Assembly: GCF_051903065.1 (NCBI RefSeq)
Contig: NZ_CP178440.1
DNA length: 64,000 nt
Origin: Escherichia coli
GTDB lineage: Bacteria; Pseudomonadota; Gammaproteobacteria; Enterobacterales; Enterobacteriaceae
Direction: 5' to 3' (one strand)
This document shows positions 49,201 through 55,200 of this stretch, piece after piece. The position numbers were made by a program. Each line of letters opens with the position of its first letter. Position 1 is the first letter of the stretch.

Positions 49201-52200
49201 TAACGACCAGTATGTCGAGTCACCGACCATCCGCAGCCGTCTGGACGAAATGATTGTGCTGCTTGACCAGTACACTGCCAACGGCACTTACGGCCGGTAT
49301 TTTAACTCTGATGAACCGTCCCTGCGGGATGATGCCAGAATGGTGGTGCTGGAGCTGGGTGGGCTGGAAGACCGTCCGTCACTGCTGGTTGCGGTGATGT
49401 TCAGCCTTATCATTTACATCGAGAACCGGATGTACCGCACGCCGCGTAACCTCAAGAAACTGAACGTCATTGATGAAGGCTGGCGTCTGCTGGACTTCAA
49501 AAATCGTAAAGTTGGTGAGTTTATTCAAAAAGGTTACCGCACCTGTCGCCGTCATACCGGTGCCTATATCACCATCACACAGAACATCGTCGACTTTGAC
49601 TCTGACAAGGCATCCAGCGCAGCCCGCGCGGCATGGGGTAACTCCTCCTACAAAATTATCCTCAAACAGAGTGCGAAGGAGTTCGCGAAATACAACCAGC
49701 TGTATCCGGACCAGTTCCTGCCACTGCAGCGCGACATGATTGGTAAGTTTGGTGCGGCCAAAGACCAGTGGTTCAGTTCCTTCCTGCTGCAGGTGGAGAA
49801 CCACTCCTCCTGGCACCGTCTGTTTGTGGACCCGTTAAGCCGCGCCATGTACAGCTCTGACGGCCCGGATTTTGAGTTTGTGCAGCAGAAGCGTAAAGAG
49901 GGGCTGAGTATTCATGAGGCGGTGTGGCAGCTGGCGTGGAAGAAGTCAGGGCCGGAGATGGCTTCGCTGGAAGCCTGGCTGGAAGAACATGAGAAATACA
50001 GGAGTGTTGCATGACCACAACGCAAAAAACGACTGATGTTACAGCCCGTCGATGCAGCCACTGGTGGTGGACGGTGCCGGGATGCCTGGCAATGGTGTTA
50101 CTGAACGCAGCCGTCAGTTACGGCATTGTCAGACTGAACGCACCGGTGACTGTCGCCTTCAACATGAAGCAGACCGTGGATGCGTTTTTTGACAGCGCCA
50201 GTCAGAAACAACTGTCAGAAGCACAGTCAAAAGCCCTTTCAGCGCGTTTTAATACGGCACTGGAAGCCAGCCTGCAGGCGTGGCAGCAGAAACACCACGC
50301 GGTCATTCTGGTGTCGCCTGCCGTGGTACAGGGGGCACCGGATATCACCCGGGAAATCCAGCAGGATATCGCCCGGCGAATGAGGGCGGAACCATGAGAT
50401 GCCGGGGGCTGATTGCCCTGCTGATATGGGGGCAGAGTGTGACCGCCGCCGATCTTGGTACCTGGGGCGATCTGTGGCCGGTAAAGGAGCCGGACATGCT
50501 GACGGTGATCATGCAGCGCCTGACGGCACTGGAGCAGTCCGGTGAGATGGGCCGGAAAATGGATGCCTTTAAGGAGCGGGTGATCCGCAACAGTCTGCGG
50601 CCCCCTGCCGTGCCCGGTATCGGACGCACGGAGAAATACGGCAGCCGGTTGTTTGACCCGTCCGTCAGACTGGCTGCGGATATCCGGGATAACGAAGGGC
50701 GGGTGTTTGCCCGTCAGGGTGAAGTGATGAATCCGCTGCAGTATGTTCCTTTTAACCAGACGCTGTATTTCATCAATGGCGATGATCCGGCGCAGGTGGC
50801 CTGGATGAAACGCCAGACGCCGCCCACACTGGAGAGCAAAATTATCCTCGTGCAGGGCAGTATCCCGGAGATGCAGAAGTCTCTGGACAGCCGTGTTTAC
50901 TTTGACCAGAACGGTGTGCTCTGCCAGCGCCTCGGCATTGATCAGGTCCCGGCACGGGTGAGCGCCGTTCCCGGCGATCGCTTCCTGAAGGTGGAATTTA
51001 TTCCGGCAGAGGAGGGCAGAAAATGAAGCGAAGCCTGTGGCTGCTGATGTTATTCCTTCTCGCCGGTCATGTCCCTGCAGCGTCTGCGGATTCTGCCTGT
51101 GAAGGGCGTTTTGTAAACCCGATCACGGATATCTGCTGGAGCTGTATTTTCCCGCTCTCGCTGGGCAGTATCAAAGTCAGTCAGGGTAAGGTCCCCGACA
51201 CGGCGAACCCGTCGATGCCCATTCAGATTTGTCCGGCACCGCCGCCGCTGTTCAGGCGTATCGGGCTGGCCATTGGTTACTGGGAGCCGATGGCGCTGAC
51301 GGATGTCACCCGGTCACCGGGATGCATGGTGAACCTGGGCTTCAGCCTGCCAGCTTTTGGTAAAACGGCACAGGGAACGGCGAAAAAGGATGAGAAGCAG
51401 GTGAACGGGGCGTTCTATCACGTTCACTGGTACAAATACCCGCTGACGTACTGGCTGAACATCATCACATCGCTGGGCTGTCTGGAAGGTGGTGACCTGG
51501 ATATCGCTTATCTTTCTGAAATTGACCCCACCTGGACGGACAGCAGCCTGACCACCATTCTCAATCCGGAAGCTGTCATCTTTGCCAATCCGATAGCACA
51601 GGGGGCCTGTGCAGCAGATGCCATTGCCAGCGCCTTTAATATGCCTCTCGATGTTCTGTTCTGGTGTGCCGGTTCGCAGGGCAGCATGTACCCGTTCAAT
51701 GGCTGGGTGAGTAATGAGTCCAGTCCGTTGCAGTCCTCCCTGCTGGTCAGTGAACGCATGGCGTTCAAGCTGCACCGTCAGGGCATGATTATGGAAACCA
51801 TCGGGAAAAATAACGCCGTCTGTAATGAATATCCGTCCCCAATCCTGCCCAAAGAACGCTGGCGTTATCAGATGGTGAATATGTATCCGGACAGCGGACA
51901 GTGCCACCCGTTCGGGCGCAGTGTGATGCGCTGGGAGACGGGAAAAAATCCGCCCAACACAAAGAAAAACTTCGGCTACCTGATGTGGCGTAAACGTAAC
52001 TGTGTATTTCTGTAACTTAAACAAAAAGAGGAATATTTTAAATGGAAAAGAAATTAAGCAGTAAATACATTCATATGTATATGAGTATATCCCGAGTGTT
52101 CATTCGTTTGACAGGAAATGTATTAAAACTGTTTCCTTTTGCTATGGTGATATGCCCTGTGGTGTGGTTTTATCTTTGCCCTGAACATATTATCTCAGAC

Positions 52201-55200
52201 ATTGTTAACGACTGGCAGGATGCAGATACACTGGAAAAAATACTGCTTGTCAAACTGTATCTGAAGACGGTTCTTATTCTGACAGTGGTAAGCGTTGTTG
52301 TCTTGTATCTTTCGTCAGATAAGTTTATGCCTGTTAAACGCAGGAAATGAGTCTGGTGGTTCTCATAAATATAACTGTGTGTGCATGTGTACAATATAAG
52401 TAAAGGTGCGTTATGGGATTTTTCTCGTTTTTACGAAAGATAAGTAATAAAGAAAAAGGGGTGGTTATCTATGAGAAGCAGTGGTTCTCACTGCTGGAAA
52501 AGGTGAGTGCTTTTGATGAGGTCAGACAATGGGCTGAAAGTAATGGTGGAGCATATTATCCTCTGCTGGAGTGTCGTCGGCTTACAGACAGTGAAAATGT
52601 CAGGAAATCAGAGGATATACTGAACCGACTGGAGTTTATTGACAGAAGATTTCGGGAATTCATCAGCATTATGTCTGAACATATTAATAATGATAAAACT
52701 AAATCCATGTGGGAGAGGGAATTGTCTGAATATCCACCGGAAAAAATATACCAGGTCCGGAGAGAGGGAGAACATCTGTCATTAAAAAATTATGGTGATG
52801 ATATTACTCTGAACAGAGATACCGCCGTGGCTACGGTGCAGATTACTGTCAGCAGAAAATGCATTACTCAGGAAGAAATGGATGAATTATATGCATTGTC
52901 TGAGAGACTGAAAGAAAAGTGCGCCGGTAATTAAATTATATCACTGTGCCGGGAGATGATATGAGCCGGAAAATATTTGAACTTTTTGCCCTGACAGCAG
53001 GACTGTTTATTTCTGCCCACGCTTCGGAAAATGTGAATACACCCGAAAACCGCCAGTTCCTGAAGCAGCAGGAAACACTGAGTCAGCAGTTACGTGAAAA
53101 ACCGGACACACAGCTGCAGGCATGGGCAGAACAGCAGGTCAGGGCGAATCCCCTTCAGCATTCCGATAACCAGTTTCTCGATGAACTGGTCCGTAAACAG
53201 CAGGCTGCTCAGAAGGATAAACCACAGCAGGGTGCCGTGTATTTTGTGTCGTTTTCCATACCCGAAGAGGGGCTGAAACGGATGCTGGGAGAAACCCGGC
53301 ACTACGGTATTCCGGCCACACTGCGGGGTATGGTGAACAACGACCTGAAAGCCACGGCTGAAGCAGTGCTGTCTCTGGTGAAAGACGGTGCGACCGATGG
53401 TGTTCAGATTGACCCGACGCTGTTTTCACAGTACGGCATTCGCAGCGTGCCGGCTCTGGTGGTGTTCTGCAGCCAGGGGCACGACATCATCCGGGGAAAT
53501 CTGCGCGTCAGACAGGCGCTGGAGAAAGTGGCCGCCACAGGAGACTGCCGGCAGGTGGCTCAGGGACTGCTGGACGGCACCGGGGATAAGTCGCAATGAG
53601 TTTACCTGCAGGCTATTACCGGATTGACCCGGACATCCGTGCACTGGTGGCCGCGATGAACGTTCACGGATTTCGTACATATGCGTCCTGTCAGGGGCAT
53701 GGTTTCCCTGTTACAAAGCTGCCGCCTTATATCGCCTTTGCCTGTCCGGTAAAAATGGCTGCCCTTCTGGAGCAGCGACTGCGGCAGGATGCTGAATCAG
53801 CAATACCACGTCTGACATGGGGATGGTCGGTGAAGGGGACTTTTAACAGTGATTTTCAGCTTTGCTTCCGGCTTCAGCCTGAAGGCCCTCATCACTGGTA
53901 TCACCGGTACTGTCGCCGCTCACTGCGTGCAGACTTCAGGACGCTGGTCCGATTAGTGAATCCGTAAATCTGTTCCCGTTAAGGAGGCATTGATGGCGCT
54001 GACAAAGAAACAGCGGGAAAAACTGCGTATGAAATTCGGTGGCCGTTGTGCGTACTGCGGCTGTGAACTGCCGGAGAAAGGATGGCATGCCGACCATGTT
54101 CAGGCGGTGCTCCGCAAGTCAGAGCAGTGCATGAAGGCTGCAGAAAAGCGCATTTTCAGGCTGAAATCCACCGGTGATGTTTTCAGACCGGAGGCCGACT
54201 GTCCGGAAAACCTCGTCCCGGCCTGTGCGCCGTGCAACCTGCTGAAAACAACATATTCGCTGGAGATGTTCAGAACGCAGGTGTCCCTGCAGGTTGAACG
54301 GGGGCGAAGAAGCAGCGTGAATTTCAGGACCGCAGAACGGTTCGGGCTGATTCAGGTGGTGAACAAACCAGTCGTGTTCTGGTTTGAGCAATATCAGAGG
54401 GAGAGTGAGGTATGAAACGTCTTCTGCCATTGCTGCTGGGGCTGGCAGTCAGTGTGGCACAGGCTGACAGCAACAGTGATTACCGGGCGGGTTCTGATTT
54501 TGCCCGTCAGATTCAGGGGCAGGGTACAGGCAGTATTCAGGGCTTTAAGCCACAGGAGAGTATCCCCGGCTATAACGCTAATCCGGACGAGACAAAATAT
54601 TACGGTGGTGTGACTGCTGGCGGGGATGGCGGCCTGAAAAATGACGGCACCACGGAATGGGCGACCGGTGAAACCGGAAAAACTATCACAGAGTCATTCA
54701 TGAACAAGCCGAAAGACATTCTGTCACCGGATGCACCGTTCATTCAGACCGGCAGGGATGTGGTGAACAGGGCTGACAGCATTGTAGGAAACACAGGCCA
54801 GCAGTGTAGTGCACAGCAGATAAACCGCAGTGAATTTACAAACTATACCTGTGAACGGGACACGATGGTGGAGGAGTTCTGCACACGGACTGCCAGGATC
54901 ACCGGAGACTGGAAATACACGGATGAATATCGTGAGGTGACGATACCGCACTCACAGTTCCGGTTCAGTATGAACGGGCTGAAACTGGTGTTCAGTGTCA
55001 CGGCTCCGGTAACCGGTACAGTGGAAAGTGCATCATTGTCTGTATACGCCGCTTTTTTCTTCCTGAATTCTCGTTATACCTTCATGAATTCAACGTTCAA
55101 TGTTGGCCTGGTAAACGGGCAGTCGGGTACTTTCCCCTTGTCCGGGGCGACAGGTTTGCAGGTGACACAGGGGCAGGTACTGACCGGCAGTGGCTGTACT

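What the first reader, a model, noticed from the sequence alone, without database searches (positions are those of the whole stretch)
52042..52934. AT-rich two-gene module (small membrane protein plus 173-aa soluble protein) inserted in the tra operon between traU and trbC
In the canonical F operon traU is followed directly by trbC. Here about 0.9 kb of markedly AT-richer DNA sits between them and encodes, on the operon strand, a 102-aa protein with two predicted transmembrane helices and a 173-aa charged soluble protein, neither recognisable to me. A membrane effector paired with a soluble partner inside a constitutively co-transcribed conjugation operon is the layout expected for an exclusion, abortive-infection or anti-phage cargo module, but the function is unknown. 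This is one of the best candidates in the window for an undescribed system.
Basis: partly seen in the sequence, partly recalled or inferred. Interest (0 to 1): 0.65.

Follow-up and report, generated by a model that had tools for sequence, protein, structure and literature searches.

The report
Accessory gene pair in transfer operon
Two small genes of unknown function, a two-pass membrane protein and a soluble protein with a conserved 'ILECR' motif, sit in a swap-prone slot of the conjugation operon of a very common resistance plasmid; both families occur only in F-type transfer regions, so they are more likely optional parts of the mating machinery than an imported anti-phage system, though neither reading has been tested.

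Summary
Between traU and trbC lie 930 bp at 38% GC (flanks 55%), with two operon-strand ORFs of 102 aa (two TM helices) and 173 aa (soluble). Each has its own ribosome-binding site, and there is no promoter or terminator on that strand. Pfam, NCBIfam, PADLOC, PHROGs, PDB sequences and Foldseek gave no match; every database calls them hypothetical.

Neither protein is an orphan. ORF1 belongs to a ~100-aa hairpin family that fills this slot in at least 2,000 PLSDB plasmids, including R100 and pSLT, usually alone. ORF2 belongs to an unnamed family with a helical core and an invariant ...ILECR... motif. I found it only in F-type transfer regions of Enterobacterales, in about five different slots, and never in viral contigs.

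The pair is not obligate. ORF2 relatives occur alone, with a P-loop ATPase, or fused to a hairpin (two independent fusions). F has an empty slot and still conjugates. The junction stacks alternative cassettes and leaves traU/trbC scar fragments.

Best reading (0.4): dispensable, lineage-variable accessory proteins of the F-type secretion machine, acting at the cytoplasmic face of the inner membrane. Main rival (0.27): a donor-protecting or competition module. Interest is moderate.

The parts
51023..52015 (+). traU (330 aa), upstream flank of the slot
   Evidence: ORF. Annotated TraU WP_000830838.1 in the identical plasmid stretch. GC 0.548.
52016..52041 (+). 26-nt spacer with a Shine-Dalgarno-like AAGAGGA (52026-52032), 9 nt before the ORF1 ATG
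   Evidence: Read from the sequence. The same spacer and RBS precede the fused gene in L013, after a copied traU 3' end.
52042..52350 (+). ORF1, a 102-aa two-pass inner-membrane hairpin protein (WP_000412447.1). Basic N-tail aa 1-29 (net +5). TM1 about aa 30-48 (nt 52129-52185). Acidic loop aa 49-75 with invariant W58. TM2 about aa 76-91 (nt 52267-52314). Basic C-tail aa 92-102 (net +4). Predicted topology N-in/C-in.
   Evidence: hydropathy and charge. Family alignment with invariant L28 K29 P32 F33 W58 L72 Y73 L74. Family present in 2014 PLSDB plasmids, including R100 and pSLT.
52351..52412 (+). 62-nt spacer with AAAGGTG (52402-52408), 4 nt before the ORF2 ATG. Its first ~33 nt are shared with the spacers of L008, L009 and L013.
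   Evidence: Its resemblance to the traU 3' end is not significant (score 27 against shuffles 18.9 +/- 3.7).
52413..52934 (+). ORF2, a 173-aa soluble protein (WP_015059014.1). Helical core about aa 22-106 carrying the family motif NGG-x6-LECR (E53 C54 R55 = nt 52569-52577) and L73/I76/D77. A C-terminal beta-plus-helix extension (aa ~113-173) is shared only with subfamilies A and B. The N-terminal FFSFLRK aligns with the end of TM2 of the fused 259-aa form.
   Evidence: No TM segment.
52961..53599 (+). trbC (212 aa from the RefSeq start), downstream flank of the slot

Best explanation
ORF1 and ORF2 are optional, lineage-variable accessory proteins of the F-type (MPF_F) conjugation machine. They are co-transcribed with the pilus-assembly genes in donor cells.

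ORF1 is a small hairpin protein of the inner membrane, with both ends in the cytoplasm and a short acidic loop with an invariant Trp in the periplasm. ORF2 is a cytoplasmic helical domain that works at the inner face of the membrane. In this plasmid it has no anchor of its own. It is presumably held there by ORF1 or by a Tra protein, because in sister plasmids the same domain is fused directly to a hairpin.

Together they are proposed to tune an inner-membrane step of the machine, such as pilus extension/retraction or the activity or docking of the TraC/TraD ATPases. They do not carry out an essential step.

What is shown: gene structure, operon embedding, predicted topology, family membership, restriction of both families to F-type tra regions, fusions, and dispensability (F lacks both). 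What is inferred: the cytoplasmic-face location of ORF2 in this plasmid, any ORF1-ORF2 contact, the target in the machine, and the direction of the effect. The invariant Glu-Cys-Arg of ORF2 is likely the functional site, but its chemistry is unknown.
For: 1. Operon embedding. Both genes are on the same strand, each has its own RBS, and there is no promoter-like or terminator-like site on the + strand between traU and trbC.

2. ORF1 family. It occupies exactly this slot in 2014 PLSDB plasmids, 1927 of them typed conjugative, including the classical plasmids R100 and pSLT.

3. ORF2 family. Subfamily A is in about 578 plasmids, B in about 296, the Serratia type in about 56 at >=60% identity, and the L019/Salmonella type in about 260. 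Every locus examined lies in an F-type tra region: traU|trbC, traW|traU, upstream of trbI or traC, after traN, or the finO-repA distal part. There are none in viral contigs. All 8 genome-collection hits are Enterobacterales tra regions.

4. Long residence. In Serratia/Salmonella-type plasmids the gene has the GC content of its locus, overlaps the trbC or traU start codon, and diverges in step with its neighbours. TraU identities of 95, 91, 89 and 67% go with ILECR-protein identities of 73, 61, 55 and 26-36%.

5. Membrane tethering arose repeatedly. It is seen as a separate hairpin gene overlapping the soluble gene (L002), as a fusion to an ORF1-type hairpin (259 aa), and as a fusion to an unrelated hairpin (159 and 180 aa).

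6. Topology. The positive-inside charge pattern places the fused domain in the cytoplasm.

7. Databases. Nothing in the defence, phage or toxin HMM libraries.
Against: There is no direct evidence of any effect on conjugation.

F has an empty slot and transfers efficiently (established knowledge), so any role is modulatory at most.

Neither protein resembles a known Tra or Trb protein (Pfam).

In the E. coli F/R100 group the cassettes are AT-rich. They are swapped between plasmids whose TraU proteins are 99-100% identical, while ORF1 alleles are only 32-45% identical. That pattern is more typical of specificity or conflict genes.

ORF2 dN/dS is 0.32-0.74, against 0.02-0.08 for traU. Frameshifted ORF2 alleles are common: a 123-aa form on 142 contigs and a 103-aa form on 105 contigs.

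In this window ORF2 lacks the anchor that its 259-aa relative carries, and it could be a partly disabled derivative.

The structure models are low-confidence (pLDDT 57 and 63).
Confidence: 0.4

Rival explanations
1. The slot carries a conflict module. The cassettes would protect pilus-bearing donor cells against pilus-specific phages, or against lethal or unproductive matings, or would interfere with competing plasmids. The hairpin would be the membrane-acting part, and the ILECR domain (with a P-loop ATPase in some cassettes) the sensing or regulatory part. Diversification would come from an arms race.
For: The DNA is AT-rich and the slot holds interchangeable cassettes between nearly identical traU genes. 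ORF1 alleles are 32-45% identical, and ORF2 dN/dS reaches 0.74. Cassettes stack, up to a 1.9-kb set of hairpin + P-loop ATPase + hairpin + soluble protein, with trbC5'::traU3' scar ORFs between them. The other AT-rich segments of the tra region lie at ~40.9 kb and ~62.7 kb, which from knowledge of the F map should be the plasmid-specific regulatory end and the traS/traT area. The P-loop partner has a weak hit to an anti-phage model (NF053861, E=1e-4, far below its cutoff).
Against: No PADLOC match for either window protein, for the fused form or for the hairpin relatives. The subfamily-B soluble protein has only a weak sub-threshold hit (E1-E2, E=0.005). Both families were found only in F-type tra regions, never in phage contigs or outside tra regions in the genomes scanned. 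The hairpin alone is the commonest state. In other lineages the ILECR protein has native GC and co-diverges with the operon. That looks like resident machinery, not mobile defence.
Confidence: 0.27
2. The genes are hitch-hiking passengers with little or no present function. The junction is simply a place where recombination deposits and stacks DNA without harming the operon. In that case ORF2 in this window is an anchor-less remnant of the 259-aa gene.
For: F lacks the slot content. Truncated or frameshifted ORF2 alleles and IS-interrupted copies are frequent. Constraint on ORF2 is relaxed (dN/dS up to 0.74). Recombination scars are present.
Against: Both reading frames are intact and identical on at least 1000 contigs of an epidemic lineage. 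Both families keep invariant residues at 20-35% identity: ECR, ID and W for ORF2, and LKxFPF, W and LYL for ORF1. dN/dS is below 1 in every comparison. The stop/start overlaps with trbC or traU in other lineages indicate selected expression.
Confidence: 0.18
3. ORF2 is a thiol-based helper linked to the disulfide-rich F-specific periplasmic proteins (TraU, TraN, TraH, TrbB, and the plasmid DsbA-like genes that lie near some family members). Its invariant cysteine would be the active residue.
For: There is one invariant Cys in the core and a second Cys (C150) conserved in subfamilies A and B. Some relatives lie next to plasmid DsbA/ScsC-like genes. The Cys-rich nature of F-specific proteins is noted in bioRxiv 10.1101/2023.12.05.570194.
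Against: ORF2 has no hydrophobic N-terminal segment that could serve as a signal peptide, and the fused forms place the domain in the cytoplasm. There is no CxxC motif and no thioredoxin-like match.
Confidence: 0.05
4. The pair is a toxin-antitoxin or addiction pair, with a holin-like hairpin as toxin and a soluble antidote.
For: The hairpin is small, with a charged C-tail, and is followed by a soluble protein.
Against: The hairpin stands alone, without the soluble gene, in R100, pO86A1 and pSLT; about 1160 plasmids carry a >=90%-identical R100/pO86A1-type hairpin allele. It sits inside a long operon that is normally repressed, which would make a poor addiction module. There is no TA-family match.
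Confidence: 0.03

Closest known systems
Unnamed hairpin ORF between traU and trbC of R100 (WP_000224416.1), pO86A1 (WP_137519650.1 / UniProt Q08JF9) and pSLT (WP_010999945.1 / Q93GM9). UniProt auto-names it 'Conjugative transfer protein'.
   Same: Same slot, strand, size (100-103 aa) and two-TM layout, with shared invariant residues. It is 45% (R100), 45% (pO86A1) and 41% (pSLT) identical to window ORF1. Window ORF1 is a member of this family.
   Different: Those plasmids carry the hairpin alone, with trbC starting 8 nt later (R100, pO86A1) or overlapping the hairpin ORF's end (pSLT) and no trace of ORF2. I found no study of any family member.
Small non-essential inner-membrane proteins of the F tra operon (TrbE, TrbA, TrbJ, TrbF, TraP, TrbD) and the uncharacterised orfX1-4 of pED208
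   Same: They are short, membrane-embedded or membrane-associated, encoded inside the operon, dispensable for transfer, and variably present among F-like plasmids. Uncharacterised orfs in F-type tra regions are acknowledged in bioRxiv 10.1101/2023.12.05.570194.
   Different: No sequence similarity: the Pfam scans, which I expect to include the Trb families, returned nothing. The slot is different. The soluble ILECR partner has no counterpart in F.
Entry and surface exclusion genes traS/traT of F-like plasmids
   Same: These are plasmid-specific, fast-diverging, AT-rich alleles embedded between conserved tra genes, and TraS is a small inner-membrane protein (established knowledge). In the window, the stretch after traG is the other AT-rich minimum.
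   Different: TraS/TraT lie between traG and traD and are present in this plasmid family as well. There is no similarity to ORF1 or ORF2. No exclusion phenotype is known for the traU|trbC slot.
Two- or three-gene anti-phage systems with a small transmembrane effector (the kind catalogued in PADLOC and DefenseFinder)
   Same: The layout: a membrane protein plus a soluble protein, and in sister cassettes a small P-loop ATPase as well.
   Different: No model matches. The families are confined to F-type tra regions and are absent from viral contigs. The components are not obligately co-inherited.

Membership tests
traU|trbC hairpin family (R100 / pO86A1 / pSLT type; unnamed) | About 100-aa ORF immediately downstream of traU, on the operon strand | tested here: met
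   The window ORF1 starts 26 nt after the traU stop. The arrangement is the same in L004, L007 and L012.
traU|trbC hairpin family (R100 / pO86A1 / pSLT type; unnamed) | Two hydrophobic helices with basic tails and an acidic loop. Conserved LKxFPF before and within TM1, Trp in the loop, and LYL(K/E) at the start of TM2. | tested here: met
   Invariant L28 K29 P32 F33 W58 L72 Y73 L74 across 9 sequences down to 32% identity. Hydropathy and charges. tblastn E=1.6e-31 to the R100 junction.
'ILECR' helical-domain family of F-type tra regions (unnamed; no Pfam or NCBIfam model) | Core motif G-G-x5/6-(I/L)(L/M)ECR followed by L-x2-L-x-(F/Y)-(I/M)-(D/E) | tested here: met
   Window ORF2 has NGGAYYPLLECRR and LNRLEFID. 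C and R are invariant and E nearly so across subfamilies A, B and the Serratia/Salmonella types. Pairwise links: ORF2 to P0131 at E=2.3e-10 in the full library; Serratia protein to solB at 7e-10 and to ORF2 at 1.6e-4, in a small database only.
'ILECR' helical-domain family of F-type tra regions (unnamed; no Pfam or NCBIfam model) | Encoded within an MPF_F transfer region | tested here: met
   Every locus inspected lies in a tra region. None in viral contigs.
Known anti-phage defence systems (PADLOC-DB 2.0) | Significant match of at least one component to a system model | tested here: not met
   0 families for ORF1, ORF2, the fused 259-aa form and the hairpin relatives. The subfamily-B soluble protein has only a weak sub-threshold hit (E1-E2, E=0.005).
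Known anti-phage defence systems (PADLOC-DB 2.0) | Reduces phage plating or causes abortive infection | not testable with these tools
   Needs phage assays with MS2, Qbeta, M13 and other phages.
Characterised F Tra/Trb accessory proteins (Pfam TrbE, TraP, TrbI and others) | Sequence match to the family profile | tested here: not met
   ORF1: nothing at E<=0.001, only three weak unrelated hits (best VMA21, 0.032). ORF2: no family even at E<=10. The 11-member ILECR alignment has no Pfam hit.
Entry-exclusion protein TraS | Located between traG and traT, and homologous to TraS alleles | tested here: not met
   ORF1 lies 8 kb upstream of the end of traG. No Pfam match.
Type II toxin-antitoxin pair | Obligate co-occurrence of the two genes, and a match to TA families | tested here: not met
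   The hairpin occurs alone in R100, pO86A1 and pSLT, and about 1160 plasmids carry a >=90%-identical R100/pO86A1-type hairpin allele. No TA-family hits.

The most novel reading that the evidence does not exclude
The traU|trbC junction of F-like plasmids is a dedicated hot spot. Alternative, rapidly diversifying cassettes (two-pass hairpin, ILECR domain, small P-loop ATPase) are exchanged and stacked there. Together they would form a previously unrecognised T4SS-linked immunity or competition system, for example protecting piliated donors from male-specific phages or from rival plasmids, with the invariant Glu-Cys-Arg as its active site.
Probability: 0.2. Interest if true: 0.75.

Novelty: new member of a known kind. 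Interest (0 to 1): 0.4.

Why it matters
The exact pair is carried on at least 1000 public contigs of an epidemic IncFII lineage in E. coli and K. pneumoniae. The insert DNA is found in 336 of 5426 complete E. coli genomes.

The hairpin family is in roughly 40% of the F-like plasmids sampled, including R100 and pSLT, yet has never been named or tested as far as I could find. Showing that these genes tune pilus dynamics, transfer rate, phage susceptibility or plasmid competition would explain part of the large differences in transfer potential among otherwise near-identical tra operons. It would also put a function on an invariant ECR motif with no structural or biochemical precedent.

If they turn out to be dispensable passengers, the junction is still a clean natural example of cassette stacking inside an essential operon.

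Tried and rejected
HMM libraries for ORF1, ORF2, the fused form and relatives. Pfam, NCBIfam, PADLOC and PHROGs gave only sub-threshold noise: T6SS ExIF/IglI at E~0.07, VMA21 at 0.03, and E1-E2 at 0.005 for solB.

PDB sequence search with two profiles found nothing meaningful.

AlphaFold2 of ORF2 (19 sequences; pLDDT 57) and of the fused 259-aa form (26 sequences; pLDDT 63). Foldseek against PDB gave no hit below E=1. 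I did not run further fold searches, because models this weak give meaningless matches.

Rfam on 51000-54500 found nothing.

Boundary repeats: only short chance-level repeats. The idea that the window's ORF1-ORF2 spacer is a degenerate copy of the traU 3' end was tested and rejected as not significant (score 27 against shuffles 18.9 +/- 3.7). The same test is overwhelmingly positive for L013 (score 104).

The pKpQIL ORF between traW and traU looked similar by eye (LEFI...), but it is not significantly related.

P0286, labelled 'Prophage protein' in the cluster of the 180-aa relative, is the overlapping downstream gene, not a family member.

Literature: the phrase, accession and keyword searches found no paper that mentions these ORFs. 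Anthony et al. 1999 (PMC94017) is not held.

Full report
**Observation**

The window carries an F-type transfer operon on the + strand: traC 47387-50014, trbI, traW, traU 51023-52015, trbC, traN 54412-56262. Between traU and trbC lie 930 bp with two + strand ORFs. ORF1 is at 52042-52350 (102 aa) and ORF2 at 52413-52934 (173 aa).

The insert has GC 0.378, against 0.548 for traU and 0.556 for trbC. Only 2.5% of equal-sized windows in the tra region are as AT-rich. ORF1 has two hydrophobic segments and ORF2 has none. Each ORF has a Shine-Dalgarno-like sequence: AAGAGGA 9 nt upstream of ORF1 and AAAGGTG 4 nt upstream of ORF2. No promoter-like or terminator-like site lies on the + strand, and no Rfam family matches.

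In plasmid F, traU and trbC are 8 nt apart.

**What the databases say**

An identical stretch occurs in many IncFII plasmids of E. coli and K. pneumoniae, for example pCTXM55_020023. There the genes are WP_000412447.1 and WP_015059014.1, both annotated 'hypothetical protein'. Each exact protein sequence is on at least 1000 public contigs. The only non-trivial name is UniProt's automatic 'Conjugative transfer protein' for ORF1.

Pfam, NCBIfam, PADLOC and PHROGs give nothing significant. PDB sequence searches find nothing. An AlphaFold2 model of ORF2 is weak (pLDDT 57). It shows four helices, a poorly defined beta region and a C-terminal helix, and it has no Foldseek match in the PDB. Text searches found no paper on these ORFs. 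The Christie laboratory notes that pED208 also carries uncharacterised orfs in its tra region (bioRxiv 10.1101/2023.12.05.570194).

**ORF1 is a member of a widespread, unnamed family**

I searched with joined traU and trbC flanks to sample the junction states of F-like plasmids. The slot is empty in F-type plasmids. It holds about 330 bp with a single ORF in very many plasmids, 930 bp as here in others, and further sizes elsewhere.

The single ORF of pO86A1, R100 and pSLT is a 100-103-aa hairpin protein homologous to ORF1 (45%, 45% and 41% identity). It shares invariant L28, K29, P32, F33, W58 and L72-Y73-L74. tblastn finds the family in 2014 PLSDB plasmids, 1927 of them typed conjugative, all Enterobacterales. 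Those solo junctions contain no remnant of ORF2.

The charge distribution is net +5 for the N-tail, -2 for the loop and +4 for the C-tail. It predicts both ends in the cytoplasm and a roughly 27-residue acidic loop in the periplasm.

**ORF2 is a member of a second unnamed family**

Exhaustive HMMER against 1.84 billion representatives found only close relatives (subfamily A, 79-100% identity) and a ~30%-identical subfamily B of 150 aa.

Subfamily B sits in the same slot. It is preceded either by a 111-aa ORF1-type hairpin whose stop overlaps its start (L002) or by a 153-aa minimal P-loop ATPase (L005, about 280 plasmids). Some plasmids carry a 1.9-kb stack of hairpin + P-loop + hairpin + soluble protein (L043).

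Weaker tblastn hits led to further branches:
- 122-136-aa soluble proteins in Serratia, Yersinia, Salmonella, Citrobacter, Klebsiella, Enterobacter and E. coli F-type plasmids. They lie between traW and traU, upstream of trbI, or between traU and trbC with a stop/start overlap onto trbC.
- 159- and 180-aa proteins in the distal finO-repA part of IncFII-type plasmids. These carry their own, unrelated N-terminal hairpin.

All branches share a helical core of about 70 residues. Its motif is G-G-x5/6-(I/L)(L/M)-E-C-R, followed by L-x2-L-x-(F/Y)-I-D. In window ORF2 these are E53-C54-R55 and I76-D77. Cys and Arg are invariant.

A motif scan of one genome per species found 8 loci. All are Enterobacterales and all lie inside F-type tra regions. 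A scan of viral contigs found none.

In the Serratia/Salmonella-type plasmids the gene has the GC content of its surroundings. It diverges in step with traW, traU and trbC, only faster. That is the behaviour of a long-resident operon member.

**Relationship between the two genes**

The pair is not obligate. The hairpin is usually alone, and the ILECR protein is often alone or with another partner.

Membrane tethering of the ILECR domain has nevertheless arisen repeatedly. A 259-aa protein, found on many contigs, is an ORF1-type hairpin fused directly to subfamily A. The 159/180-aa forms are an independent fusion.

In the loci with the 259-aa gene, a separate 103-aa hairpin gene precedes it. 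Between the two lies a 70-nt copy of the traU 3' end with its spacer and RBS (alignment score 104, against 20 +/- 4 for shuffles). In L043 a 41-aa ORF is a chimera of the TrbC N-terminus and the TraU C-terminus. These scars show that cassettes which each once followed traU directly have been stacked by recombination between plasmids.

In the window, ORF2 begins with FFSFLRK, which aligns with the last residues of TM2 of the fused form. Window ORF2 therefore looks like the soluble part of such a gene without its own anchor, placed behind a paralogous hairpin gene. Whether ORF1 substitutes in trans is inference.

**Evolutionary behaviour in the E. coli F/R100 group**

TraU proteins of the window, pO86A1, L005 and L002 are 99-100% identical (dS 0.06-0.10). 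Their slot contents differ completely, and ORF1 alleles are only 32-45% identical.

Between the two common alleles of the window-type cassette, ORF2 has dN/dS of 0.32-0.74. The values are 0.02-0.08 for traU and 0.09-0.35 for trbC. Frameshifted ORF2 alleles are common: a 123-aa form on 142 contigs and a 103-aa form on 105 contigs. IS insertions also occur. The insert is present in 336 of 5426 complete E. coli genomes, in 363 of 365 cases on a plasmid.

**Interpretation**

Two lines of evidence pull in different directions.

Some evidence fits optional subunits of the F-type machine, acting at the cytoplasmic face of the inner membrane:
- Both families are restricted to F-type tra regions.
- They are embedded in the operon with translational coupling to trbC or traU in other lineages.
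- In those lineages they have native GC and co-diverge with the operon.
- They are absent from phages and from defence catalogues.

They would be comparable in kind to the small non-essential Trb proteins.

Other evidence fits a conflict or specificity function, or weak constraint:
- The cassettes are AT-rich.
- They are swapped between near-identical operons.
- Non-synonymous change is elevated.
- An ATPase-containing three-gene variant exists.

F's empty slot shows that no essential step depends on these genes.

I rank the readings as follows: accessory-subunit first (0.40), a donor-protecting or competition module second (0.27), functionless passengers third (0.18), and thiol-helper and toxin-antitoxin ideas as minor (0.05 and 0.03). 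None of the functional steps is shown. The shown parts are gene structure, predicted topology, family membership, distribution, fusions, scars and dispensability.

**Novelty and verdict**

The genes are already in the databases as hypothetical proteins. Small uncharacterised ORFs in F-type tra operons are a known phenomenon. What is new here:
- Both proteins belong to definable, unnamed families specific to F-type transfer regions.
- The soluble one carries an invariant ECR motif and is repeatedly membrane-tethered.
- The traU|trbC junction is a cassette-stacking hot spot.

I classify the finding as a new member of a known kind, namely optional tra-operon accessory proteins. Interest is moderate (0.4).

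Noticed in passing
window 53596-53967 and 53990-54415 (+): A second variable slot lies between trbC and traN. It holds a 123-aa ORF with no family match and a 141-aa HNH endonuclease (phrog_2118 E=2.4e-58; weak PtuB and retron-HNH hits). F and R100 have neither. pSLT has only the HNH. L006 has only the 123-aa type.
   Followed up: partly
L013 3902-4000; L043 2961-3086: Recombination scars inside the slot. L013 has a 70-nt copy of the traU 3' end with its spacer and RBS between two cassettes. L043 has a 41-aa chimeric ORF made of the TrbC N-terminus joined to the TraU C-terminus.
   Followed up: yes
L005 2126-2587; L043 3112-3576: A 153/154-aa minimal P-loop ATPase (Pfam AAA_14 at E=9e-4) partners the ILECR protein in about 280 F-like plasmids. 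It has 43%-identical relatives in about 460 plasmids, those listed being ~58-127 kb, annotated 'sigma 54-interacting transcriptional regulator' or 'YfdA'.
   Followed up: partly
L009 1188-1367; L041 3107-3286: An additional 59-aa ORF (MMEKEQKQCG...) occurs in the same junction in some plasmids, upstream or downstream of the hairpin gene. No function is known.
   Followed up: no
L031 2225-2614 (pKpQIL): pKpQIL has a 129-aa ORF between traW and traU, overlapping the traU start. By eye it has one hydrophobic N-terminal segment and a helix-rich remainder. It is analogous in layout but not significantly similar to ORF1 or ORF2.
   Followed up: partly
L017 6306-6692 (Serratia pATCC): The traU|trbC slot of a distant F-type plasmid holds an unrelated, AT-richer 128-aa protein that looks multi-pass by eye (GC 0.48 against 0.62-0.64 in the flanks). 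The slot therefore attracts small membrane proteins in more than one lineage.
   Followed up: no
window 7836-8558, 11078-11800, 14672-15394 (-), 28892-29614, 33222-33944: Five identical 240-aa ORFs. From memory the sequence looks like the IS26 transposase, which would imply a multi-IS26 resistance region upstream of the tra operon. I did not search it.
   Followed up: partly
window ~40650-41980 and ~62650-63780: These are the only other stretches of the tra region as AT-rich as the insert (GC 0.35-0.37). From knowledge of the F map they should be the traM/traJ regulatory end and the traS/traT area after traG. I did not annotate them here.
   Followed up: no
window 52946 vs 52961: The mechanical ORF call starts trbC at GTG 52946. 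RefSeq starts it at the ATG that corresponds to window 52961 (MSRKIFELF...).
   Followed up: yes
L025-L030 around 5462-6309: The 180-aa hairpin-ILECR gene lies in a conserved distal block: traX, finO, DsbA/ScsC-like gene, two small ORFs, DUF2726, the 180-aa gene, 102-aa and 78-aa ORFs, a PLD-family gene, then repA. The 102-aa gene overlaps its end and is clustered with it by mistake in the protein collection, under the name 'Prophage protein'.
   Followed up: partly
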